Assembly: GCA_018985225.1 (NCBI GenBank)
Contig: JADGIF010000154.1
Location: 1 to 16,689, forward strand
From: Amoeboradix gromovi X-113
Lineage: Eukaryota; Fungi; Sanchytriomycota
Direction: 5' to 3'
Length of the DNA: 16,689 nucleotides
Of the stretch, positions 1 to 16,689 are shown piece by piece (position 1 is the stretch's first letter; every line of letters starts with the position of its first letter). The position numbers were made by a program, and so were the translations under genes. The notes under the pieces are model-generated. The model was not told where the DNA came from, ran no database searches, and saw nothing but the letters and a program-made list of their open reading frames with translations.

Positions 1-249
1 GAACGTCTGGAAAAGTTATGCAGTTATATAAAAATTCTCGATAAATAATTCATTTTACAAAATTCAGTAGCTGTCACTAGGAGCTACAAACAATATCTTC
101 CAAAACATCTGTGTAATGGTTTTCAATGCAAGGAAATTCGTTACTGTGTCATTTAAAAGACATTCAAGAGCCGTTTGATATTTAGCTATCTTTCTCAAAA
201 GAGATCGTCTTATTTATGAGATTCTCATCTTAATAACAAAGGGAATATT

Positions 250-1230: not shown

Positions 1231-2325
1231 ATGTTATTTACAACTTTAATCAGTGCATCAAACTGCGACTACGGCGTTGAATTGACAGCAGACTCTAGAT
1301 TGCTAAGATACTTAAAATCGAAAGCGCTGAGCAAATTCGTTGTAACAATTAGACAAGAAGGGAACAAGTATAAGGAAGTGGAAGGTAATACCATTATGGA
1401 TGTTTCTCCGGGACAGTCTATCTTCTTTACCCAAACTGTTGCTGCTGACAGAACTAAAATTATCAATCAGTGCAGGGAATTTGAATCTTTTGAGTGGATA
1501 GTAAACGGAAAGTCATGTGGTAAAAAGGATTCTATCAAAGGAAAAGATGGAAAACTAACAGCTACATGGGACAAATGTGACAAGATCGAAGTACCGGCGG
1601 ATTTTGAAAAGGAAAAATCAACTAAAACTGCTCCGAAAGAAGTAGCAATTGAAGACGTGCCAGGTGATGCAGATATGGCCATTAAAGCTGAAGAAGATGA
1701 AGATATGGCCATTAAAGCTGAAGAAGATGAAGATATGGCCATTAAAGCTGAAGAAGATGAAACTATTGAAGAAGGTGATGGGGAAGTTCTCACAGACAAG
1801 CACACTAAGTCAAGCAACCTTAAAACAGAATCATCAGCTGACGAGGACCCTACGGTAGCAGATGCCGATAAAGAAGAGGGAAACAAAGACCCAAATGATA
1901 ATACCACAATGAGGCGAGTTCTAACGGCAAACTCACTAGCTAATGACAATTCATTAACTGGAGAAGATGAAATGAACTTCAAAGACCCAGAAAACTTTGG
2001 CAGTAGCGACCCACACTCTTATTCTACTAAAAAAAGAGTTTATAGTGATGAAGAAGATAGCACTATTCCACCTCCTCCAGCTATTGGAGATTCTTCACCA
2101 ATGATTGCACCACCAATTGGAGATTCTTCACCAATGATTGCACCACCAATTGGAGGTTCTTCACCAATGATTTCACCGCCAATTGGAGATTCCTACCCTA
2201 ATGGCGATGTGAATTCGGCAGAGTATCGTCCATTTTCTTCTGATTATGGAAGAAACTACGGTGCCCAAGAATACCATGCATATGCATCTCCATTAAGAAG
2301 TGTCGATTATGGATACAAATATTAA
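1231..2325 (+). CDS. Putative secreted acidic/Pro-rich repeat protein (364 aa)
   Basis: Intact ORF with a short hydrophobic N-terminus (MLFTTLISA) and a Cys-containing N-terminal domain. It has in-frame tandem repeats, dibasic RR/KKR sites and a Tyr-rich tail. AATAAA overlaps the stop. Confidence 0.75.
   Translation: MLFTTLISASNCDYGVELTADSRLLRYLKSKALSKFVVTIRQEGNKYKEVEGNTIMDVSPGQSIFFTQTVAADRTKIINQCREFESFEWIVNGKSCGKKDSIKGKDGKLTATWDKCDKIEVPADFEKEKSTKTAPKEVAIEDVPGDADMAIKAEEDEDMAIKAEEDEDMAIKAEEDETIEEGDGEVLTDKHTKSSNLKTESSADEDPTVADADKEEGNKDPNDNTTMRRVLTANSLANDNSLTGEDEMNFKDPENFGSSDPHSYSTKKRVYSDEEDSTIPPPPAIGDSSPMIAPPIGDSSPMIAPPIGGSSPMISPPIGDSYPNGDVNSAEYRPFSSDYGRNYGAQEYHAYASPLRSVDYGYKY
1671..1760 (+). 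repeat. 3 perfect 30-bp coding tandem repeats (DMAIKAEEDE)
   Basis: AGATATGGCCATTAAAGCTGAAGAAGATGA at 1671, 1701 and 1731. Confidence 0.97.
2083..2192 (+). repeat. 3.3 copies of a 33-bp coding tandem repeat (IGDSSPMIAPP)
   Basis: ATTGGAGATTCTTCACCAATGATTGCACCACCA at 2083 and 2116, a variant at 2149 and a partial copy at 2182. Confidence 0.95.
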
Positions 2326-2690: not shown

Positions 2691-3788
2691 CTATTTATTA
2701 ACTAGATGTACTTGACATGATTGCACATTCAGCTGCTCACGATATACTTTTTGAAACTCCATAATTTGATTTGGTAATCCGCTGAAATATATGTTTTTGA
2801 TTTGGTAATTCTGAACTGTAGCATTTAGCATTGAAAATTGTGTATTTTCCAAATTGTGAAGGTGTATGCTCTGTAGTTTTAACGACTTGATAAATGGAAA
2901 AGGCAAATAAATGCTACCAAAACAGTTTAGATTTTTAAATCTCTCAAAATCAGCAAGTTCCAATGAGTTAATTCCAGGAACAATTACCAATTTTTCGATG
3001 TTATCAGAATTAAGAGCATCAAATATCATCCTAGTTTGTTCATTACGAGCCCCAATAATCTTGCAACTTACGTCTTCAAGTAAATGTGCTAATAACAATG
3101 ACTTTGCTACAGATCGAGAATCTACTGGAGAGAAAGTAATGTCTAGCTTGACTAATAGCTTCAAATGACCTTTTAGACTGTTCAAGACATTCACGTTGTC
3201 AGTATGTAAAATTTTAGCGGAGCCCGTAATTTGTTGAGTTTTGAACAGTTCATCTAAATCGGGGCAATCCTGCCAGGTTAATGATTCCTTGGAAAATCTA
3301 AGTGTCTCTGGTTCTTTTATACTCAATACCTGCACGTTTGCAATTTCGAATGTTGTCAAATGCACCGATTCCAACAAAACCTTAAAATTTGGATATTCAA
3401 TAGAGACGCTGTACAGTCCAAGATGAGTTAAGTGTTTAAACCTGTTAATAATATTCATTTCCAAAATGTCATTCATCTCTCCACTGTTCTTTCCAAATAG
3501 TAAAATCTCTTTTACTTCTAAGGATACGCTTTCAATGTATTTGCTTGGCCCGCAGTATAACTGCAACTTAGATTTGCAAATTAACTCTAGAATTTGCTTC
3601 TGCAACGAATCAATCAAATTTAATGGGCTTAAAGTTACTACCAAAAATTTCAATTGTTTGGTGTCAATTGGCAATTTTATATCTGTCGTATGCACAATGT
3701 ACAATTGGCTTGGACTCGCTTGCTTCTTAACTTCAGATGAAAAGAGTGAAATGAATCCATTTAAATCTAGTTCAAATAGACTTGCCAT
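2691..3788 (-). CDS. Hypothetical protein with degenerate leucine-rich-repeat-like segments (365 aa)
   Basis: Long intact ORF with an ATG start. LxxLxL-type segments include FKHLTHLGLYSVSI, NIEKLVI, LKLQSIHLHNL and QIKNIYFSGL. The LRR call is tentative. Confidence 0.6.
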   Translation of the reverse strand: MASLFELDLNGFISLFSSEVKKQASPSQLYIVHTTDIKLPIDTKQLKFLVVTLSPLNLIDSLQKQILELICKSKLQLYCGPSKYIESVSLEVKEILLFGKNSGEMNDILEMNIINRFKHLTHLGLYSVSIEYPNFKVLLESVHLTTFEIANVQVLSIKEPETLRFSKESLTWQDCPDLDELFKTQQITGSAKILHTDNVNVLNSLKGHLKLLVKLDITFSPVDSRSVAKSLLLAHLLEDVSCKIIGARNEQTRMIFDALNSDNIEKLVIVPGINSLELADFERFKNLNCFGSIYLPFPFIKSLKLQSIHLHNLENTQFSMLNATVQNYQIKNIYFSGLPNQIMEFQKVYREQLNVQSCQVHLVNK

Positions 3789-6764: not shown

Positions 6765-7370
6765 ATGTTAGTCCTACTTTCTCTATTTTTAAGTGCTACT
6801 AGCAAGAGTTCAAGAAGCTTAGCTAGTAAACAGTCTACCCTGTCTGATATTTCCAATGAATGTCTATCCGCTCTGAATCTTTTTACAAAGTGCCAAACTA
6901 CCTCAACCTTGGACTATAAAAGAACTCACCCGAACGCTTCAATTAGCATCATAAACAGTACCCCTATCTACTGTCCGATTTGCAACGATCAGTATGCTGC
7001 AGTTGGGCAGATCTGCGATACTGAGATCTCAAATGGAAATCCAACTATTTTTATGCAGTATTTCACTTGCTACTCTATCAATGACAAGTATTGCATGAAC
7101 GAGTTTGAGTCTATAGACAATGGAACTGTGAATTACAGCCAATTCGACTGCACTAATTCATGCCATAAATGGTTGGCAGACTATTACAACAAATTCAATA
7201 ACACTGAATCTACCACAAGTATTACTCAAGACGTAATAGATGCAGGATGGACTACTGAGAATATCAAGAGTTGTTTAAAGCGAATTGTTGCAAATAACGA
7301 TAACGGATCAAGCGTTTTAGCAGTATCCACAATCAACTTAGTTCTTGTCGCACTGTTCACCGTCAAATAA
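6765..7370 (+). CDS. Cys-rich secreted, probably GPI-anchored surface protein (201 aa)
   Basis: Signal-like N-terminus MLVLLSLFLS and 10 Cys. Several N-x-S/T sites, and small residues (NGSS) followed by a hydrophobic C-terminal tail. Confidence 0.75.
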   Translation: MLVLLSLFLSATSKSSRSLASKQSTLSDISNECLSALNLFTKCQTTSTLDYKRTHPNASISIINSTPIYCPICNDQYAAVGQICDTEISNGNPTIFMQYFTCYSINDKYCMNEFESIDNGTVNYSQFDCTNSCHKWLADYYNKFNNTESTTSITQDVIDAGWTTENIKSCLKRIVANNDNGSSVLAVSTINLVLVALFTVK

Positions 7371-7439: not shown

Positions 7440-7640
7440 CCTGTTGTGACACATTCACTCATTTTCAATCTTGGTTTCTATGAAAATCTAGAGTTTCACC
7501 AGGACGCTGGCAGTTCCAATTGTGCAGTCATATCATTTACCAGTACCATGCGGAGTGCTGCAGCCATAAATCTGATTTAGACGCAATTTGCAGCTTGACT
7601 ATTTTGTAGAATAAATCATTTATCGCGAATTAGTATGCAT
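7440..7640 (+). pseudogene. Short degraded hAT-like transposase relic
   Basis: Frameshifted ENLEFHQDAGSSNCAV / LPVP / ECCSHKSDL resembles the hAT second-D region plus the CxxH motif. Nucleotides 7553-7570 match 630-647 at 17/18. Confidence 0.4.
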
Positions 7641-7790
7641 TTTTGTATAATTTCAAGACTTTTCCAGATTTTTCAAATACCTTAAATATTCGATATTCTT
7701 CCTTTTCACAAGTGGTAAATCAATTCTAAAGAAACAACTAACAGGTACAGCATACATTCGTCTCAGACTGATAAGCTGGTCTAAACACGG

Positions 7791-8040
7791 AAATTCGATG
7801 CCATGTACAGTATGTGGCACTCTAAAGAAAACCAATTTGGAGAACTATTCATGTACATAGTGTCGTTTGGAAGTCGACATGGACCACATGGCACCAAGGA
7901 ACAAATTCGATGCCATGTAAGAGGTATGGTACTTTAAAGAAAACCAGCTTAGAAACATACACATGTACAAATTGTCATTTTAAGATAGATAGAGACCATA
8001 TGGCTGTAAGGAACATATACATCAAGTATCTGCATCCTTA
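7791..8040 (+). pseudogene. TnpB/Fanzor C-terminal fragment (Zn ribbon + RuvC-III), tandemly duplicated
   Basis: Copy 1 (7791-7902) reads SMPCTVCGTLKKTNLENYSCT*CRLEVDMDHMAPRN. Copy 2 (7903-8014+) reads SMPCKRYGTLKKTSLETYTCTNCHFKIDRDHMAVRNIYIKYL. Both match the TnpB/Fanzor pattern SxxCxxCG...CxxC...DRDxNAxxNI. Confidence 0.75.
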
Positions 8041-8392
8041 TTCAATCCCGCCTCAGGGTAGTGAAAGCGTAAGCAATCACTGTAACGGTGCATCTAGCAT
8101 TGCTAGTTTCTCTGCGGAAATTCTCGATTTTCTCGGAAATCAGGACTTTTAACGAGGAGTAAACAAACATGCAATATCAATCAGCGTTGTATTACCATCA
8201 ATGGTTTGCAAACATATTTTACTGCAAAAAATCGTAGTTGCGAGTGTCCCTATCTGTAACCAAATGCCGCTGAAATCGCAGCCAATGCATGAAGTTTAAT
8301 TTATAGCTAGTAATATGGCTTAAATAATGATTAGCTGGCTATTTTATAAAATCTTCAAGTGTTTATTGTTCAACGTTGCGAAAGGATAATAT

Positions 8393-8674
8393 TTACTCAA
8401 AATTGAGTTGCCTCATCATATCAAGACGCTCCTTCCACTCATTAGCAGATACTTCAGTAAAGGAGTAACAAATTTCCGACTTTTTAACAGTCAGAACGCA
8501 GTCTTTGATTGTCATTTGGAATCCTTTATCAACAGTTATAGTGTCCAACAATTCTAACGATAGAGGAAGACTTTTATCCGCTATTGCTTGTTTGGAAACC
8601 GATTGTGACGTGCCCTTATGAAGGCTAAATAATGAGCCGTGTGATCCTACTTTACTTGAGCTTCTCAATGCCAA
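8393..8674 (-). CDS. Possible 3' fragment of a host gene (no ATG start)
   Basis: Open frame with only a TTG start; it stays open about 18 more codons upstream without an ATG. The C-terminus YSFTEVSANEWKERL is vaguely like the terminal helix of a PH domain. Confidence 0.25.
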   Translation of the reverse strand: MALRSSSKVGSHGSLFSLHKGTSQSVSKQAIADKSLPLSLELLDTITVDKGFQMTIKDCVLTVKKSEICYSFTEVSANEWKERLDMMRQLNFE

Positions 8675-8942
8675 ACGCTCGCTTTCCTTAGTTAGTTTAA
8701 AATACTGCGGGATTAGAGATGACAGGTCTCAAAGGAATAGATAAAACGTGCCTTGAAATGCGACTTAATCATTAGCATAGGTCAAACATGCATGTATCAA
8801 GTGCTAGAGGTGCAAATGTGCAACGTGTCGATGATGAAACCATAATGGTTAAACATTACTCAGATGTACATGTGCAAGTATGAAAGGTGTAAAGGTGGAA
8901 TGAAACTCTTTTTTTTCAACTTCAAATTTTCAAGCATCTATA

Positions 8943-8988
8943 CATATGCAATGATATTTTCTAGAAAAATTAATTAATTAATTCAAAG
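8943..8988 (+). repeat. Left terminal inverted repeat core
   Basis: CATATGCAATGATATTTTCTAGAAAAATTAATTAATTAATTCAAAG matches the reverse complement of 16588-16632 at 41 of 46 columns. Confidence 0.9.
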
Positions 8989-9150
8989 GTGCAAAGGTGA
9001 AAGGTACATAGGTTCAAAGATGAAAGATGCAAAGGTACAAGATGAAAAATCAAAGGTGCAAAGTTTAAAAGGTGCTGGGTATAAGATGAAGGGTGCAAAG
9101 GTACAACTGTGAAAGATCAAGATACAAATGTGAAACATAAGGTCAAGGTG
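8984..9150 (+). repeat. Left subterminal array of degenerate 7-8-bp repeats (CAAAGGTG / AAAGGTAC / AAAGATG)
   Basis: Directly visible purine-rich periodic array. Confidence 0.9.
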
Positions 9151-9201
9151 GGCAAAAAGTATCTGAATCAGAAAGAATTTCGAGCAGATGTCTATTCAAA
9201 T

Positions 9202-11538
9202 TCAACAAAACGATACCCGTTTTTCATATTCATGAATAAGGGTCGCCTCGAGTTTCTGTTCATTAACGAAAATCTTAAGGTCATCGATCGTTGTAAATGT
9301 CTTCGTTTCTCGCTGAACCAGAACTGCATTAGCCAACTTGCGCTTATCTTTGCCCGACAACGCCATCTGAATGTACGAAATAGGATCTGTGTTGATTTTC
9401 ACGAATGGAGACGATGCTGGATGAGTCCAGAGTGTGCCATGATATCGCTGATTTTGACCATAAGCAACCACAACGCTATTCTTGGCCAAATCGACCGCGC
9501 TAACGTTGGCGTAAATGACACAGCTAAACAAGCACGCGACTAATGTGCTATTGGCTGCCAAAATGCGAGGCATAATCGACGCCTTTTGTAACAAATTTGA
9601 GACGCCGATTTGTCCCAGATTGTTCCCTCCAACATGTTTGCGTTGGTCCGTAAATAATACATATCCATCTGAGGACTTCTTCTGCAACACATAAAACACA
9701 TCAACCCCTTCGCCTCCTTCCCCGTTGATTACTACCAAACCTTCCTTCAACCAGTCATGTCGCTCATTGTAATTCCCCTTGCGTCCAATCATTGGTGACG
9801 ACATATCAGTCGAAAACTTGTCTTCAGTTTCCATTACTAGCATCGGCCTTAGTTCGACTTCGTCTTCACATCCGTTGACTATCGCGCCCTTAAACAATTG
9901 CTTGACCTTGACTACTGAGCGGCCAACAATAATCAATGAATTGATCCGCAACGCATGATAGTACGCTCCAAACACCTCCCATAATTGCCATGGTGCCTTG
10001 TCGTATATCAACTCATCAACTTTTTCAATCAATCCTTGAATGCAAAGGATCAGACAACAAACGGCGTTATCTTGAAACAAGTGAAGCGGATATTCGGAGA
10101 TACGATGAAAAATTGCATACGGAATAAGAACTTCGTGATCGTCATTGAGTAGACAAAGAGAGCTATCTCTAACTCGAGACCAACTCATGTCATTAATAAC
10201 CGCAACTTCTTCATCAACTTTCTGCCCGGCTACCGCATATGCAACAAGTTTGATAAAATTGATAGCACCTAGTGATCTTCCCCATGTCTCCACGTAGGAA
10301 TTCCTGGTAACCTTGTATGCACTCTCAATAGTTTCGATATTTAAGAAGCCATCTAAGGAAATGCATTCAATCTCCTTCAGCAGTCGCAAAACGTATTCCG
10401 TAACCCACCTCGGAACTCCACCCAGGTAAAACAAATGTCTGCGAACTGGCGCGTGCAGTAACAGCCGATCTCCCTTAGGAATTGAACTAATTGCAGTTTC
10501 CACGTCAGATTGAGTCAGTAGGTACATCGGCATACGAAGACTTTCAGTCTTGGAGGAGTTGACAATGGAAATGACAGAAAAGTCGGTTCCTGCAAACATT
10601 GGATAAATGCGTACACCAGCAACAGGAGCTGCCATAATGTCACCGAGTACGTTCAGCAAATCTTGAAGCAATTCCTCATTTCCCTTCTTCTTCCCGCCAA
10701 CTTCGTGAATCGTCTGGTACTCGTCAACTCCAAGAAACAAATGAAGAGTCTCACTTGACTTCAGCATACCGAGGTTGATACACTTTTGAAGTATAACTTG
10801 GAGAGCCAAATCAAGAGTCAACTCACCGCCATTCACGGGCAATGACTCGGTAAACCATTGACGAAACACATCGCCATTACCCTCAATAAAACACCGATGC
10901 AGCAACCTCCAAGCGAACGATGCCTCAATAAGCATTTTGCGTTCTACAGGGTGCGGCATGTGACCGTTATGATAAAGCACCAAAACACCAAGCCGAGTTT
11001 CAGGAATGCCAGCCAAATCAAATATCCGCTCCCACTCTTCCAGCATTCTTGTCTTTCCAAGACCAGACAACCCAGAGCATACCGGAATTTTCCGATGAAT
11101 TCGTGTAGTTTGAGAGATTGGCTTCGCAATTACCTTCATACATTCAGCGGCTTGTTGAAGCGCTGCATCACGGCCAGATAACGGAAACATCATATGGTCT
11201 TCGGTGAGTACGCGAGGTACGCAATGGAATTTGGTCGGATCCCCCATCTGTCGCTCAAGGAATTCTAACAGACTCGAAGCGTTCAAACTGATACGCTCTC
11301 CTTTAGGCTCTGGTGACGGCAGCTGCTGATCGACATCCATCGCGTCAATAGAGGCTGGCGGGCGGAGGTGGTTGTAAATGACAGACCCGATAATAGGATT
11401 GCGGCACAAAGCCTGCCATTGCGATTCTTGAATGCCCCGTATATCGTTAAATGAAAGAGGATCAATTTGTTCGACCATCTGATTTAGCCCATAGCCTTGT
11501 AATTTGTGAATAAGCGTGTCTTTGGTCGGCGTCGTCAT
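9202..11538 (-). CDS. Crinkler/RHS-type (CR) protein: helical header + P-loop NTPase + PD-(D/E)xK-like nuclease + C-terminal HhH-like domain (778 aa)
   Basis: Walker A SGLSGLGKT, Walker B LFLGVDEYQ and the GGVPR motif of the AAA+/STAND-like helical module. Nuclease-like WEVF...NGEGGEGVDVFY...DQRK. ComEA-like tail VKINTD...LANAVLVQR..KTFTTIDDL. The ORF is intact. Confidence 0.8.
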   Translation of the reverse strand: MTTPTKDTLIHKLQGYGLNQMVEQIDPLSFNDIRGIQESQWQALCRNPIIGSVIYNHLRPPASIDAMDVDQQLPSPEPKGERISLNASSLLEFLERQMGDPTKFHCVPRVLTEDHMMFPLSGRDAALQQAAECMKVIAKPISQTTRIHRKIPVCSGLSGLGKTRMLEEWERIFDLAGIPETRLGVLVLYHNGHMPHPVERKMLIEASFAWRLLHRCFIEGNGDVFRQWFTESLPVNGGELTLDLALQVILQKCINLGMLKSSETLHLFLGVDEYQTIHEVGGKKKGNEELLQDLLNVLGDIMAAPVAGVRIYPMFAGTDFSVISIVNSSKTESLRMPMYLLTQSDVETAISSIPKGDRLLLHAPVRRHLFYLGGVPRWVTEYVLRLLKEIECISLDGFLNIETIESAYKVTRNSYVETWGRSLGAINFIKLVAYAVAGQKVDEEVAVINDMSWSRVRDSSLCLLNDDHEVLIPYAIFHRISEYPLHLFQDNAVCCLILCIQGLIEKVDELIYDKAPWQLWEVFGAYYHALRINSLIIVGRSVVKVKQLFKGAIVNGCEDEVELRPMLVMETEDKFSTDMSSPMIGRKGNYNERHDWLKEGLVVINGEGGEGVDVFYVLQKKSSDGYVLFTDQRKHVGGNNLGQIGVSNLLQKASIMPRILAANSTLVACLFSCVIYANVSAVDLAKNSVVVAYGQNQRYHGTLWTHPASSPFVKINTDPISYIQMALSGKDKRKLANAVLVQRETKTFTTIDDLKIFVNEQKLEATLIHEYEKRVSFC

Positions 11539-11670
11539 CGTTCGTTGAAATTTTTCAAAAAAGAAAAATATTGGCTAACCGATGTGATTGGGTCACGTCC
11601 AGCCCAGCCAATCTAATTCGTCGAACCAGAGAGCGTTGAATTTTTGAAAAATATTCTCTTCTCCCTGAAA
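11539..11670. promoter_or_regulatory. Putative bidirectional promoter
   Basis: 132-bp divergent spacer. AGCCAAT occurs on both strands (11570-11576 minus, 11606-11612 plus). A perfect 12-bp inverted pair TTTTTGAAAAAT (11550-11561 minus, 11641-11652 plus) lies just upstream of each ATG. Confidence 0.6.
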
Positions 11671-12075
11671 ATGAATCTTGCTCCAGCTCACAACCCCGAT
11701 TTACCGCTATACTTCATTGATTTCGCACCAGGAACAACGGGGGCTACTTTTAATGATGAGTTTCTTCGAAGTATCCACGCCCAACGAATTCAAAACTTGG
11801 CTGAATTGGAAGCGTTGGAGGTAGATGTTAATCTGATCGTGGTCGGTCACGGAAATGGAAATGGGTTCCAAGTTGCTAATGATAACAGAGTCGTTCAACT
11901 CGATTATTCCCATCCTCAAAACTTGAATTGGAGAGCAAATGTGCAGTTGGTTCACTTATTTACATGCTATGGAGCGAATTTTATGAGCTCAACTGAAGGT
12001 TTCAGAGGATATGCTTTTGCTACTCTGTCTGTTACAAATGCCCGTGGTTTGATGTTGAATCTCTTTAGACATTAA
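11671..12075 (+). CDS. Small caspase-fold (clan CD; C80/CHAT-like) cysteine protease, 134 aa
   Basis: The first ATG is at 11671 (the ORF track uses TTG 11644). Hydrophobic-strand-preceded catalytic motifs LIVVGHG and VHLFTCYGA lie about 39 residues apart. AATAAA follows 7 nt after the stop. Confidence 0.65.
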   Translation: MNLAPAHNPDLPLYFIDFAPGTTGATFNDEFLRSIHAQRIQNLAELEALEVDVNLIVVGHGNGNGFQVANDNRVVQLDYSHPQNLNWRANVQLVHLFTCYGANFMSSTEGFRGYAFATLSVTNARGLMLNLFRH

Positions 12076-12098
12076 TGGTGCCAATAAATGTTTTACTT

Positions 12099-13130
12099 TC
12101 ATGATCTTTTACTCTGTCTTCTATCAGGTTCAATACCTTCACGTATACGCTTATCAGTACGGTATATGTCAAGTTGCTTCTGTCTTAAAGAGTTGTCTAT
12201 ATCTTGACTTAATGACGAGACTTTGAGTACTTCAAACATATTAAACTTTTGATGCTTGCCTTCAACCTGAATACTATTCAATCCCACGTTATCAACTATG
12301 TAAATCTTCAAGGTGAATCGCTGACCTTCTTTCTCGAATGCTCCTCGTTTATTCAACAGCCTGACAAAGTCACCTCGTTTGATAGCGGAATCTGTGACCT
12401 GATTGTTGTGGGCTATACTTTTTCTTATCAGTTCCACTTCATCAAACATCTCCAGTCGCTCAGGTATCTTTGCAATACTGCTATGAAACGATAAGTTGTA
12501 ATTTTGAACAAAGTCGGGCAACTTATCAATCCATCTATTTGTATTCTTGCTTGTCAAGTACTTTTCAATCATCAGTGCTATAGTGCGATTAAACCTCTCT
12601 GCGACTCCCAGACACTTCTTATCATCCTTCTCACAATACTGTGATGATATATTATGTTCATCTGTCCAATTCGTAATGCAATTATTTTGAAACTCTTTAC
12701 CATTATCTGTTTGTAGAACTTTCAAAGGGCGTCCATCATTGATCGACTGTTGACGAATTCTTTCAAATGCACCCACAACAGTTTCCTGACTTTTATCCTT
12801 CAATGCCGCGACATATGCATACTTTGTGTTGTCATTGATTACAACCAGCAGAATGTGGTAGTTTGAGTTTTGTCTCTGATATCGCGTAAGAAACGTTAGA
12901 TCTGCTTGATAGTGACCAACCTTGCCGTGAATCTTTGGTGTGCTTTTCGAATTCTTTGGTTTCTGAAACACTTGGCTGATCGGACTTTGAGCAAGGAACT
13001 CCTTAACCTGTTTCATTGTGATTTTTGGGTTCTGTTCTTTGGCGCGTCTCAACAACTTGTCAGCTCTAACAAAACCAGTTTTGGGATCGTTGAACAGCTT
13101 GTTACGTAATTGAATAGTACTCTGTGGCAT
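12099..13130 (-). CDS. Retroviral-like (rve) DDE integrase, Polinton type
   Basis: Catalytic triad in YQADL, LQTDNGKEF and AERFNRTI, plus YNxSFHSSI and the C-terminal GDFVRL...FEKEG..FT..IY motif. The probable ATG is at 13130 (MPQS...). Confidence 0.93.
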   Translation of the reverse strand: MPQSTIQLRNKLFNDPKTGFVRADKLLRRAKEQNPKITMKQVKEFLAQSPISQVFQKPKNSKSTPKIHGKVGHYQADLTFLTRYQRQNSNYHILLVVINDNTKYAYVAALKDKSQETVVGAFERIRQQSINDGRPLKVLQTDNGKEFQNNCITNWTDEHNISSQYCEKDDKKCLGVAERFNRTIALMIEKYLTSKNTNRWIDKLPDFVQNYNLSFHSSIAKIPERLEMFDEVELIRKSIAHNNQVTDSAIKRGDFVRLLNKRGAFEKEGQRFTLKIYIVDNVGLNSIQVEGKHQKFNMFEVLKVSSLSQDIDNSLRQKQLDIYRTDKRIREGIEPDRRQSKRS

Positions 13131-13167
13131 TGTATATATCAAAAAAGATAATCATCCAAAATAATAA

Positions 13168-16100
13168 TTATTTAATTGAGGCGTGAAAGAGTGGGACAGA
13201 ATCGTTGCCTACAAAATACCTTCCTTTCCACTGGACCGTATTGATTTGCTTTTCCAATGAGTCCAACTTCAGAATACTAAAAATATCAACAAGCTGTTGT
13301 TTTGAGCTTCGATTGACGTTGATGCGTCTAAAATCGCGTTGCATATCAATCTTGATCGAATTGCCAAGCATCATTGATTCAAACATATCTACATTCAGCT
13401 GATCTTTGGGGATGCCTTTGCCACGCAGATGATACTTGATCTCCTCGTGATCTTCACATTTCTCCACGTATTCTAGGAAATACAGCTTAGGGCAATCCAT
13501 ACTCCATAAAAAATCTTACAGTTTTCTCCAAGATCATCGCTGATTCCACCAATTTCATTGTCCATAACTAAACCTTTCATATTCTTCGCGTGTATTTGAA
13601 TACTGTCAATGTCTGTATAGTAGGGTGAATTTTCAAGTTGTTGTTTTAGATCGCCACTATCAAAGTATGGATTCGACTTTTTCAAATAGTCCAGCATTAT
13701 CCTACGGCTATACCCTAGAATGAAACTTCCCAGATAGCATGGTTTTGAAATCTTTGATGCAAGCTTTTCTTCATCTTGATATGTTAGGTAGAAACTTCCA
13801 TCGCTGAGGGCTCTCATTGACACGCCTCCATATTTGATATGATACTTTATGAATTCCTCGTGCAAATGTATAATGACGTTTTCATCTAGAATGGGCCTCT
13901 GAATTGTTTTCCCATACAAACCATTCATCATCAACTTAGCAAGTTTATACTGCGCGCTACCCTTTCTCGCATTCTTTTTGAATTCATAAAGGTGGTTGAT
14001 ATAGTTACCAAACACGTTATCTGTCTGCTCCCAATAATATCCTTCAATGATTTTGTACCCATTTACCAAGGCGTTATCAATATCGACAGAGTTATATGTT
14101 CCACATCCATCTCGCAAATCCCATATCAAACGACCTTCTTCTCGTCTAGGAAGAATTCCATCAATTAGATTTTTGTTTGTGATGTATTCAACTCTGTATA
14201 TACCTACTTTAGGGCATTTGCCATCTTTCTCGATCAATTCATTAAAGTATTTTAGAGACGGTGTATTTTCCCTCAAACTGTTTGGTATTCCAATTGGGAA
14301 CTCGTTTTTCATCGCGGCAGGATACAGAGAATTGACATATGCATCGATTAAATAGTCCTCAATATCTTCGAATGATATCTTCTTGTTGATATACGCATCG
14401 TGCTGACTGCTGACAAACTTGTGGTTATACTTGTAAGTTCGTCCTCCATATATTGATTCTCGAAAGAACTTCTCATGCTCAGCCGTAGGTAAGAACACTG
14501 GATTGTTTGTCTCGTCATATAGAAAGTTTATCCATGACGCGTATGTGAGTTGGGATGTTGACAGATACTTGTAGAAATTAGCACCAAAGTTTTCATAACA
14601 GCTTTTGTTCAATCGTTCTGACAACTCTTTCAGACCCAAAACATCTCCTTGCAAATAGTTTAAACAGTCGGCTTGATCAGTGTTGCACATCTTTTCCCAG
14701 TCATCTCCTAAACCATAATCACCCTTCTGAACTAAGCAGCTCAATTCTTGCAGATTCTGTCTCAAGGTTCCAGTGGTGTGTTTTGAAATGTCGAAACACG
14801 AGATGTTTCCTACGCTTGCCTTTAGAATTGCTCCATTGTTCAACAGGAGCTCATCTAACTTGATTGAGTCATCTTCAGCGTGCATTTTACTCAGTTTCTT
14901 AACCAGTTCATAATGATAGAATTTGCTTCCATTGTATGCGTTTACAAAAACTGATGAGTATACAGAATAGTTGAGTAGATGGTTGATGAACTTTTCCATA
15001 CAATCAACACCTGTGAAGTATGTGAAAGTGTTTTCAATATTATCAATGAAGCCAAGAATGTATGGCGTATGAATCTTGATGCCGCCTACTGCATTTCTTG
15101 TATGTGTTTCAATATCATAATGAACTATTACTATTTTATCATTTGGCTCATCAAAGTTGAACTTGTCACGCTTGAATGGATTAATAACATATCTGTGCTT
15201 ACCATCCTTAATCAGCTTTTATACTATCATGTTAGTATTGCAGTTGTGTTTGCTTAAGTATTTTCTACTGCAGCCTGCACACTGTTGATACTGTTTAATT
15301 TCAATCTTTGAATAGTAATCATTCTCCAACAAAAGCAAAACTTTCTCGTCTAACCCTTCTAGATCTCATAATAATATCGTTTGACCATATCTCTAACCCG
15401 TATTTACCATCCTCACTGTATTTGTGAAATATATCTAGTGCGGATTTAACATCGACCAATGAATCCTGTTCGAGGTTAAATTCTTGTCTGATGCAATTGC
15501 ACTCTTTTTTGGAAAGTTTATGTTTAATACTTGGTACATAAGACTGAATGCACTTGAAGAAGCAATTGTTATTTGATGCCTTTGGATGAGTTATTCTTTT
15601 GACGGCATCATTTGTTTTGAGCTCTCGTGTGTTACAACCTCCTTGAATGGCTTTTATTATATCAAATTTCTATCCTATTTAAATCCTCCGAATAATCCTG
15701 ATTCTTACCAAAGAATCCATCAGCATACACGTTGATCATGTGAATCAATGCTTTCTTGTTCTTAACATCAACACTCTTGAATATCTTGTATATGAAAAAA
15801 TTGTCGCTATCGACCAACTGCTGGTATTTCAACATAATAATATCATTTGGATTCAACTTTGATTGTGTGATAACAGTATCAATGAATCTGGATATAATCG
15901 TTGTTTGCGATGTTGTATCTATATGTGCTGTTTTAACCCATTTGCCCCTTTCCCTCCCCTCACTCAATTCCTTCGCGTACTTTTTCTCCTTGTTGGCAAA
16001 GTACGCTAGATCTCTTATTGGAAATAGTTCATTTCGACCAACAAGATATCCAGCATTATTCATTTTGCATTGTAAGACATATTCAACCTTTCGTTTGAAA

Positions 16101-16303
16101 TCTAAAAACTCTAGCTGATAGTAGTCGCTTGTTAAATCAGCCAAGGAACATGTGAGCTCCCTCAACAATAGGTTAGAATTATTCAGTTTTTTCCTCAGGC
16201 ATTGATGCTTTGTATCGAAGGTGGTATCAAATTCATCAACCAGATAGTCCAAAGCTGGAAGTCTCCTGGGCTCATTGAAAGTTAGCTGGTTAATGCTAAC
16301 CAT
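13168..16303 (-). pseudogene. Protein-primed family B DNA polymerase polyprotein, disrupted (~1040 codons)
   Basis: Motifs: Exo I HYDIET (~15105-15123), Exo II YNGSKF(Y), Exo III YLQGD, SIYGGRT, motif A (Y)VNSLYP, motif B KLMMNGLYGK, motif C YTD(I)DS, APKLY and KGIP. Frameshifts at ~15665, ~15360 and ~13491 and a TAA at 15219-15221 join track ORFs 15662-16303, 13473-14999 and 13168-13500. Confidence 0.9.
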
Positions 16304-16359
16304 GGCTCTTGTATATAATAGGGAAATATTTTTATTCTGAAATTAAATAAATAATAACT

Positions 16360-16594
16360 TTGACGTTTTACCTTTCACGTTTGCCGTTTACACTTTCACC
16401 TTTAAAGTTTGAACTTTGAGCTTTTAGGTTTCTCCTATGGACCTTTGTACCTTTGGGCGATTCATCTTTGAAAGTTTCATCTTTTACCTTTGCACCTTTG
16501 ACCTTTGTACCTTTCATCTTTGCACGTTTGCACCTTTGCATCTCTGTACCTTTGCACCAATCACGTTTCACCTTTGTACGTTTTCAACTTTGAA
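16360..16594 (-). repeat. Right subterminal array of the same 7-8-bp repeats, inverted
   Basis: CACCTTTG / GTACCTTT / CATCTTT units on the plus strand. Confidence 0.9.
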
Positions 16595-16632
16595 CTAATT
16601 ATTTAATTTTCAAGAAAATATCTTTGCATATG
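16588..16632 (-). repeat. Right terminal inverted repeat core
   Basis: The reverse complement reads CATATGCAAAGATATTTTCTTGAAAATTAAATAATTAGTTCAAAG. Confidence 0.9.
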
Positions 16633-16685
16633 GGACACCAAATATAAAAACTAGACTAACTCGTTTTTATAGGAGGTGTTCCATA
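16629..16685. repeat. Imperfect 57-nt palindrome/hairpin
   Basis: TATGGGACACC-AAA-TATAAAAAC-(11 nt)-GTTTTTATA-GGA-GGTGTTCCATA. Confidence 0.85.
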
Positions 16686-16689
16686 CGGA

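What the first reader, a model, noticed from the sequence alone, without database searches (positions are those of the whole stretch)
8943..16632. Compact Polinton-like element with no virion module, carrying effector cargo
Seen: only four genes between the inverted repeats (pPolB, integrase, protease, CR protein), tightly packed. There are 37 bp between the pol stop and the integrase ATG, and 23 bp between the convergent integrase and protease stops. Established: canonical Polintons are usually much larger and add major/minor capsid proteins, an A32-like packaging ATPase and an adenain protease. Inference: this is a minimal self-synthesizing transposon or an integrated linear-plasmid/transpoviron-like replicon that ferries effector genes. 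It could be a vehicle for CR-effector expansion or horizontal transfer.
Basis: partly seen in the sequence, partly recalled or inferred. Interest (0 to 1): 0.8.

Follow-up and report, generated by a model that had tools for sequence, protein, structure and literature searches.

The report
Dead capsid-less Polinton carrying Crinkler cargo
This is a 7.7-kb virus-derived jumping element with a broken DNA polymerase gene, an intact integrase gene and no capsid genes, carrying an intact Crinkler-type ATPase–nuclease gene and a small predicted protease; it likely belongs to a family of about 8-kb capsid-less elements of aphelid-like microbes that likely swap such cargo.

Summary
The four genes, their spacing and the inverted ends are real. 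Two corrections. (1) The pPolB is a pseudogene: three frameshifts, one stop and substitutions at four invariant catalytic-motif residues. This copy cannot self-synthesize; the integrase, CR and protease frames are open. (2) The terminal CATATG is more likely a 6-bp target duplication than the repeat tip, and the right one overlaps a high-copy TnpB-type element.

The polymerase forms one clade with metagenomic relatives, nested among capsid-encoding Polinton-like viruses; one of the closest has the same pol→integrase order. No capsid module was seen in 27 close loci (short contigs, weak test). Overlapping contigs outline a second unit of about 8 kb with an unrelated NTPase–nuclease cargo. Another relative holds SET and ParB-like genes between pol and integrase. 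Some relatives show end-to-end junctions, likely circles or tandem dimers.

Capsid-less Polintons, including a fungal one, and cargo-carrying Mavericks are published. Crinkler cargo on such a minimal element in aphelid-like hosts was not found in my searches. Verdict: a new variant of a known kind. Effector spread is plausible but not shown.

The parts
8742..8942 (.). End-like repeat DNA outside the proposed left boundary; either part of a longer end or the end of a neighbouring or older unit
   Evidence: Same AAAGGT-type repeats. Depth-table positions imply one X4 contig spanning about 8742-9003, with no X4 cover at 8170-8453. A second X1 contig (depth 8.15) matches here and joins 16620 onward.
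8943..8948 (.). CATATG, candidate left 6-bp target-site duplication
   Evidence: Identical hexamer at 16627-16632; register matches relatives' termini. Inferred.
8949..9140 (+). Left terminal inverted repeat: AT-rich arm plus 7–8-nt tandem array
9202..11538 (-). Intact CR (Crinkler-related) protein: short helical header, AAA+/STAND-like NTPase, predicted restriction-endonuclease-like nuclease, C-terminal HhH-like end
   Evidence: 65 homologs, some named Crinkler family. Model pLDDT 88; fold hits Avs3, ORC/Cdc6, TnsC. Walker A/B and D613, D631-Q-R-K conserved. GC 45% against 34-40% in five host genes.
11671..12075 (+). 134-aa ORF, predicted caspase/CHAT-fold cysteine protease (His60-Gly, Cys99); variable cargo
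   Evidence: Model pLDDT 57. Best VIA hit SAVED-CHAT, Z 7.7, rmsd 3.1, 119 aligned; caspase or CHAT hits lead two Foldseek lists at E 0.015-0.03. Skipped by contig joints in X12, almost uncovered in X4.
12099..13130 (-). rve (retroviral-like DDE) integrase, open frame, D77/D142/E178 present
   Evidence: Pfam rve E 2e-9; alignment; 0 of 27 conserved columns altered
13168..16303 (-). Protein-primed DNA polymerase B pseudogene (terminal-protein region inferred, vOTU, exonuclease, palm), with 3 frameshifts, 1 stop and catalytic-motif substitutions
   Evidence: Pfam DNA_pol_B_2 E 4e-47
16318..16626 (-). Right terminal region: tandem array between two inverted AT-rich arms; outer part is the inverted copy of the left end
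   Evidence: (I5, I8)
16627..16632 (.). CATATG, candidate right target-site duplication; its last bases overlap the start of the high-copy element
16630..16689 (+). Left end (strong hairpin) of an unrelated very high-copy element; not part of the Polinton
   Evidence: Summed contig depth about 55,000 against 14-33 elsewhere, with heterogeneous loose ends before 16627-16631; hairpin z -6.5

Best explanation
This is an integrated copy with a broken polymerase gene, likely of a small Polinton-derived DNA transposon family that lost its capsid module and likely carries exchangeable cargo, here an intact Crinkler-type NTPase–nuclease gene and a predicted caspase-like protease. Inferred mechanism for intact family members, by analogy with Polintons: the pPolB copies the element from its ends using its fused terminal-protein region, which the vOTU domain would cut off. 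The DDE integrase binds the repeat arrays at the imperfect inverted ends and inserts the linear copy with a 6-bp duplication. End-to-end junctions in relatives would be circles or head-to-tail dimers of free copies. With no particle to fill, genome size and content are free to change, and genes enter between, before or after the pol–integrase core. This copy can move only if a polymerase is supplied in trans. Its cargo and integrase have stayed open while pol decayed, which hints at selection on them.
For: Shown. The pol clade (window, P0086-88, L006/7/11/23) has SH-aLRT 100 and lies among capsid-module viruses L083/84/85/87. L084 has the same pol→integrase order, 44% and 41-44% identity, an A32 ATPase and a weak Ulp1-like protease hit. 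Pol lies upstream of the integrase on the same strand in 15 of 27 close loci, several of them redundant. L001, L002 and L003 end in the same terminal motif 200-350 bp after the integrase, with different flanks. L018, L023 and L002 overlap at 94-99% and together cover about 8.0 kb from end to end with only a broken NTPase–nuclease cargo, pol and integrase; that cargo does not hit the window's CR profile. L026 has SET and ParB-like genes between pol and integrase. CR, ends, pol and integrase are all covered at 80% or more in four other runs (X2, X3, X4, X12), and one X4 contig puts the CR 3' end 27 nt from the pol upstream region. No close pol, integrase, CR or protease relative in IMG/VR. End-to-end junctions with 2–3-nt spacers in L009 and L011-13. 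All 4 frame breaks fall in pol (P=0.043 if spread by length, post hoc); 3 of 79 conserved columns are altered in pol against 0 of 27 and 0 of 74 in integrase and CR.
Against: No single contig holds a second complete element; the 8-kb unit is inferred from three records. The close loci are short (27 loci, 70 kb in all), and the capsid test is weak because the viral capsid seeds barely found each other. In the L009/L011-13 subfamily the middle of the element was not assembled and could hold a virion module. CR-like genes beside deletion remnants (L021, L022) may be host flank. The window's termini lack the 5'-AG motif, and the arms are only 76% alike. The left boundary and the target duplication are ambiguous. 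No whole genome was available, so copy number, empty sites and cargo swapping within one genome were not tested directly. The protease fold is a middling match from a low-confidence model.
Confidence: 0.66

Rival explanations
1. A deletion remnant of an ordinary capsid-encoding Polinton-like virus whose full-length sisters were not sampled; the capsid-less state is decay, not a lifestyle.
For: This copy is decayed. Deleted remnants exist among relatives (L021, L022) and in the possible source run (joint 12253→16493). The nearest outgroups are full viruses. The capsid search was insensitive.
Against: A long stem (0.54) separates the clade from all viral contigs. No member of the clade was found in IMG/VR. 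Ends directly follow the integrase in L001-3, and the L018/L023/L002 overlap leaves no room for a virion module. Intact 1053-1062-aa polymerases exist in the clade.
Confidence: 0.14
2. The core is a real capsid-less Polinton, but CR and the protease are passengers: CR NTPase–nuclease genes are themselves mobile or sit in repeat-rich regions and were captured by chance, with no role for the element in their spread.
For: CR GC is 45% against 37-39% for the core. Cargo position and orientation vary. CR homologs are widespread in aphelids, Rozella, chytrids and oomycetes. CR genes are reported near Helitrons (PMC5289972, passages).
Against: The same CR family lies beside the terminal repeat in other samples. 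No repeats or duplications of its own were seen around CR. An unrelated NTPase–nuclease gene occupies the second unit.
Confidence: 0.12
3. A satellite replicon (transpoviron-like lifestyle or linear plasmid) that borrows particles or transcription from a helper virus and integrates only now and then.
For: TATATA-like motifs lie just before the pol and integrase starts here, in relatives and before some L084 genes, but not before five host genes. Very high contig depth of relatives in X4 with no flank cover. End-to-end junctions.
Against: Full exonuclease and no SF1-helicase fusion, unlike transpovirons; no RNA polymerase or capping genes, unlike cytoplasmic plasmids (recalled). An integrase is present, and this copy sits among host genes. 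Contig depth is no copy number.
Confidence: 0.08

Closest known systems
Polintons/Mavericks lacking the morphogenetic module (Polinton-1_GI of Rhizophagus, 11,954 bp; Polinton-1_EI; zebrafish N1 elements; PMC4028283 section 4 and Table S1, read)
   Same: pPolB plus rve integrase between inverted ends; no MCP, penton, ATPase or maturation protease
   Different: 7.7 kb, smaller than every entry in that table (smallest 10,272 bp). Imperfect ends of tandem arrays; CR and caspase-like cargo; aphelid-associated clade. Relationship to Polinton-1_GI not tested (sequence not at hand).
Capsid-encoding Polinton-like viral contigs L084, L083, L085, L087, L081 (IMG/VR)
   Same: Nearest polymerases (33-44%); L084 and L081 share the pol→integrase order
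   Different: 15-20-kb contigs with an A32-type ATPase (L081, L084 by Pfam; L083, L085 by Walker A motif), protease-like and capsid-like ORFs (capsid identity judged by size, position and appearance, no Pfam hit); no CR
Cargo-carrying Mavericks of nematodes (10.1101/2022.07.12.499685, abstract and outline) and insect polintons with TE cargo (10.1101/2025.02.07.637071, passages)
   Same: A Polinton-type element carrying protease or toxin-like cargo; pol-less copies that may stay mobile
   Different: The insect ones keep capsid genes (passages), and the nematode ones are described as virus-like with a fusogen (abstract); here no particle route is encoded
Capsid-less fungal pMVRE group 1 lineage and transpovirons (PMC13215967, sections and passages; PMC11161782, passages)
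   Same: TIR-bounded pPolB elements without structural genes
   Different: Mavirus-type and transpoviron pPolBs lack most of the exonuclease or are fused to SF1 helicase; this clade has the full vOTU–exonuclease–palm enzyme. No aphelid genome is named in that paper's 8 supplementary files.
CR-NTPase + CR-REase proteins (Zhang et al. 2016, seen only through the review PMC5289972, passages)
   Same: Header, P-loop NTPase and REase-like layout
   Different: No Pfam Crinkler ubiquitin-like header; the header is a short helical domain; no secretion evidence

Membership tests
Polinton/Maverick | Protein-primed PolB with TP–vOTU–exonuclease–palm layout | tested here: met
   Pfam hit, and vOTU Cys/His, exonuclease and palm motifs invariant in 25 relatives; pseudogene in this copy. 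TP identity is inferred from position.
Polinton/Maverick | rve integrase | tested here: met
Polinton/Maverick | Terminal inverted repeats | tested here: met
   160 nt at 76%; imperfect
Polinton/Maverick | 6-bp target-site duplication | tested here: inconclusive
   CATATG on both sides, but it is palindromic, the right copy overlaps another element, and end-like DNA continues to the left
Polinton/Maverick | 5'-AG-type repeated end motif (PMC8097293, passages) | tested here: inconclusive
   Relatives end in 5'-AGAAGA; the window's proposed termini begin CAA
Polintovirus (virion-forming) | DJR major capsid, penton, A32 ATPase, Ulp1/adenain protease | tested here: not met
   No unassigned long ORF remains in the element; no hits from viral seeds; the small protease is caspase-like, not adenain-like
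Autonomous self-synthesizing element | Intact polymerase in this copy | tested here: not met
   3 frameshifts, 1 stop, catalytic-motif changes. The X1 contig matches 12529-16653 with 0 gaps, though X1 may be the source.
Transpoviron / Tlr1-like | pPolB palm fused to SF1 helicase, exonuclease lost | tested here: not met
   Exonuclease motifs present and no helicase hit; feature from PMC11161782 passages
Cytoplasmic linear plasmid (pGKL type) | Own RNA polymerase and capping genes, no integrase (recalled) | tested here: not met
   Integrase present, no such ORFs
CR (Crinkler/RHS) protein | P-loop NTPase followed by REase-fold nuclease | tested here: met
   NTPase by fold and motifs. The REase rests on conserved D…D-Q-x-K and homology to named Crinkler-family proteins, not on a fold match.
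CR (Crinkler/RHS) protein | Canonical CRN ubiquitin-like delivery header | tested here: inconclusive
   No PF20147 hit in the protein or in 42 aligned members; the header is modelled as helical
CR (Crinkler/RHS) protein | Delivery into a host cell and effector activity | not testable with these tools
   Needs experiment
Caspase/CHAT (clan CD) protease | Caspase-hemoglobinase fold with His-Gly and Cys dyad | tested here: inconclusive
   Motifs present in the window and in fragments P0214/P0215; Z 7.7 from a pLDDT-57 model

The most novel reading that the evidence does not exclude
Aphelid-like parasites of algae harbour an active family of about 8-kb Polinton descendants that gave up the virion altogether, cycle through end-joined circles or dimers, and act as dedicated shuttles for Crinkler-type nuclease genes and other effector-like cargo. 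They would seed CR expansions and move CR families between lineages, with the nuclease and the caspase-like protease possibly forming a selfish toxin–regulator pair that keeps the element in the host.
Probability: 0.27. Interest if true: 0.78.

Novelty: new variant of a known kind. Interest (0 to 1): 0.55.

Why it matters
It is a compact natural case of the virus-to-transposon transition: the nearest viral relatives keep the same pol–integrase pair plus a virion module, and this clade appears to have traded that module for cargo. If intact copies prove mobile, they give a testable answer to two open questions: whether a Polinton can transpose with only pPolB and integrase, and how CR effector genes multiply and move in early-diverging fungus-related parasites. 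This copy is dead, so the value lies in the family.

Tried and rejected
Stop-codon recoding as a cause of the broken pol was rejected: three of four breaks are frameshifts, the stop sits where the relative has Tyr, and host genes end in TAA. The 213-aa ORF at 15662-16303 as a fifth gene was rejected: it is the pol N-terminus. IMG/VR scans with the integrase, P0086, the CR alignment, the protease and an end motif gave nothing close. The prokaryote genome scan gave only distant polymerases, 37% at best. The capsid, penton, ATPase and protease seed search found nothing in the window or 27 close loci except a weak Walker-A hit in the L018 cargo, but its sensitivity was poor. PDB sequence searches for CR and the protease were blank; Rfam gave only a tRNA. 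P0217 and P0218 were not used as protease homologs; P0218 was checked and is a repeat artefact. The Atlas lead for the protease was weak (Peptidase_C80 in 13% of a cluster, score 0.83). The Atlas search for the CR header and the VIA search for the CR model did not complete. A hairpin at 8905-8985 is not above chance (z -0.9). Depth differences across the element in X1 (31, 21, 14) and higher CR depth in the polyA run X12 were not used as copy number or expression, as the tool warns. Earlier-findings look-ups returned nothing. Zhang et al. 2016 could not be read. Tree rows: 45, 27; the most distant proteins and the prokaryote loci were left out.
Full report
OBSERVATION. Between 8949 and 16626 lie four genes: CR (11538→9202, 778 aa), a 134-aa ORF (11671→12075), an rve integrase (13130→12099) and a pPolB (16303→13168). 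The 37-bp and 23-bp spacers are exact. The ends are inverted repeats well above chance (160 nt, 75.6%, E 2e-20; score 110 against a maximum of 46 in 500 shuffles). Each is an AT-rich arm plus a 7–8-nt tandem array. The flank is a compact eukaryotic genome: tRNA-Arg and intronless ELO and RPL32. No whole genome is held.

THE POLYMERASE IS DEAD. Against the intact relative P0086 (1053 aa; 51-71% identity by segment) the gene changes frame three times and has one in-frame stop. It departs from 3 of 79 highly conserved columns, and these are the exonuclease II Asp, the motif A Asp and the motif C Thr, each invariant in 25 of 25 others. The vOTU His is also replaced. A contig from run X1 matches 12529-16653 with 2 differences and no gaps; X1 may be the source, so this is not independent. 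The integrase keeps D77/D142/E178 and departs at 0 of 27 conserved columns, CR at 0 of 74. All four breaks falling in pol has P=0.043 by length (post hoc). The share of altered columns in pol ranks only 7th of 26 sequences, so the count itself is not extreme; their position is what stands out.

THE ENDS. CATATG stands at 8943-48 and 16627-32. Being palindromic it reads as part of the inverted repeat, but it is also a direct repeat. The bases inside it (CAATGATA, CAAAGATA) line up with the AGAAGATA termini of L001, L002, L003 and L009. Polintons make 6-bp duplications (PMC8097293, passages), so I read the element as 8949-16626 with a CATATG duplication. Two facts weaken this. First, from about 16630 the DNA belongs to another element with summed contig depth near 55,000, many unrelated left flanks and a strong hairpin; 25 of the 71 contigs listed with loose ends there share CATA before it. 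Second, 8742-8942 is end-like repeat DNA, also held by an X4 contig that runs across 8943 and by a second X1 contig that then joins 16620. That contig could be an empty or deleted homologous site, which would support the boundaries. Its onward letters were not shown.

CARGO. CR has 65 homologs, the best named ones in Amoeboaphelidium (58-74%), then chytrids, Rozella and oomycetes, some named Crinkler family. A confident model (pLDDT 88) matches STAND, ORC/Cdc6 and TnsC AAA+ folds. Walker A, Walker B and a D…DQRK nuclease-like motif are conserved. This is the NTPase+REase layout of CR proteins as summarised in PMC5289972 (passages); the original paper could not be read. There is no Pfam Crinkler header, and effector delivery is untested. 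The 134-aa protein has few relatives: 6 hits in 1.84 billion including itself, 3 of them plausible fragments. It has His60-Gly and Cys99. Its low-confidence model (pLDDT 57) ranks CHAT or caspase proteins first in three libraries (Z 7.7; E 0.015; E 0.033). It is likely a caspase-like protease, not the adenain of Polintons.

THE FAMILY. The integrase has 85 homologs, the named ones in Amoeboaphelidium protococcarum and A. occidentale at 73-85% over partial lengths; the window's host itself was not identified. Of 80 metagenome loci, 27 are close (52-78%). In 15 of the 27, pol lies upstream on the same strand; several loci are redundant. L001, L002 and L003 end shortly after the integrase in one terminal motif with different flanks, as independent insertions would. 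Neighbouring genes differ: SET and ParB-like genes between pol and integrase in L026, an AAA protein in L020/L011-13, a broken NTPase–nuclease in L018, a Pfam-Crinkler gene in L021 and a nuclease-like ORF in L022. The last two sit beside deleted remnants and may be flank. L018, L023 and L002 overlap at 94-99% and outline a unit of about 8.0 kb: an inverted end copy, NTPase–nuclease cargo, pol, integrase, end. It has no room for a virion module, and its cargo does not hit the window's CR profile. This unit is inferred from three records, not seen on one contig. In four other runs, relatives at 80% or more cover ends, CR, integrase and pol. One X3 contig links CR to the terminal repeat, X12 joints skip the protease, and an X4 joint places CR just upstream of pol. 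L009 and L011-13 carry two imperfect ends abutted with a TA or TAT spacer between pol and integrase; no other locus in 1.4 Mb passed the same test. I infer circles or tandem dimers; in that subfamily the middle is unassembled.

ORIGIN. In two trees the window's pol groups with the close relatives (SH-aLRT 100, stem 0.54) inside a wider group containing viral contigs L083, L084, L085 and L087. The exact sister is unresolved. L084 shares the pol→integrase order and has an A32 ATPase, a weak Ulp1-like protease hit and capsid-like ORFs. No member of the close clade was found in IMG/VR. Loss of the virion module on the stem is the simplest reading. The direct capsid search of 27 loci was negative but insensitive.

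MECHANISM. Shown: anatomy, decay of pol, linkage and variable neighbours. Inferred from Polinton biology (PMC11161782, passages): protein-primed copying from the ends with vOTU release of the terminal protein, then integrase insertion. Inferred here: free end-joined forms, cargo exchange, and mobilisation of this copy only in trans. Untested: nuclease and protease activity, expression, effector role and transfer between species.

WHAT IS KNOWN. Nine of 72 Polintons lack capsid, ATPase and protease, among them a fungal one of 11,954 bp (PMC4028283, section 4 and Table S1). A capsid-less fungal lineage of mavirus-related elements is mentioned in PMC13215967 (section 7); no aphelid is named in its text or 8 supplements. 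Cargo on Mavericks is known (10.1101/2022.07.12.499685, abstract and outline; 10.1101/2025.02.07.637071, passages), and a Crinkler-like gene spreading with hAT elements in fish is reported (PMC12957317, abstract). Searches for Polinton+Amoeboaphelidium gave 0 papers, Polinton+Crinkler 2 (listing only, not read), and aphelid/Crinkler/TE terms 6 (listing only). None describes this family in its title or abstract start. Subscription papers, Repbase and preprint supplements were not visible and may.

VERDICT. A real element and a dead copy, from a family that looks capsid-less and cargo-bearing. New variant of a known kind; interest 0.55. The shuttle-for-CR reading has probability about 0.27 and would deserve about 0.78.

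Noticed in passing
window 7640-8159 and 16630-16689: Two ends of a very high-copy element family in run X1 (summed depth 22,000-55,000). The first holds two 112-bp copies of a TnpB/Fanzor-type zinc-ribbon remnant (Pfam Cas12f1-like_TNB) and ends near 8159; the second starts with a strong hairpin and prefers CATA before it, like the SpuFz1 TAM (PMC10432273, passages). Many contigs join 8156-8162 to 16627-16631 directly or with 8-28 variable letters, suggesting circles or tandem copies.
   Followed up: partly
window pPolB 13168-16303: All three departures at highly conserved columns, plus the vOTU His, hit catalytic motifs rather than structural positions; unexplained, post hoc.
   Followed up: partly
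L009:321, L011:3483, L012:2759, L013:4187; L018:405-950: End-to-end junctions of imperfect inverted ends with 2–3-nt spacers just upstream of the integrase, reminiscent of IS3/IS481 or 2-LTR circle junctions (recalled); L018 has an end followed by a partly deleted inverted copy.
   Followed up: partly
window, upstream of 16303 and 13130; L001-L043; L084: A TATATA-like motif a few bases before the pol and integrase start codons, also before some L084 genes, absent before five host genes, CR and the protease.
   Followed up: partly
window 11539-11670: The divergent spacer between CR and the protease carries an inverted TTTTTGAAAAA-type motif before both starts, suggesting a shared control region.
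   Followed up: no
window 12253 and 16493; 11932-12101: In X1 one contig joins the integrase 3' part to the right-end repeats (a likely short deletion derivative), and two variants cover the protease–integrase border.
   Followed up: no
L026:530-2548: SET-domain and ParB-like genes lie between pol and integrase in a relative.
   Followed up: partly
L054:138-1640: A gag–protease retroelement fragment sits directly against a truncated integrase nearly identical to that of L003.
   Followed up: no
window 6-35 and 7639-7668: A 30-nt inverted pair (83%) brackets the host gene block; possibly ends of another repeat, or chance.
   Followed up: no
window 1231-2325, 2691-3788, 6765-7370: Host genes without a clear family: a 364-aa protein with 30- and 33-bp internal repeats, a 365-aa LRR-like protein, and a 201-aa cysteine-rich protein with hydrophobic ends, probably secreted or anchored.
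   Followed up: no
L081, L084: Near-complete Polinton-like viral contigs with pol→integrase and a virion module; L084's integrase is split into two ORFs.
   Followed up: partly
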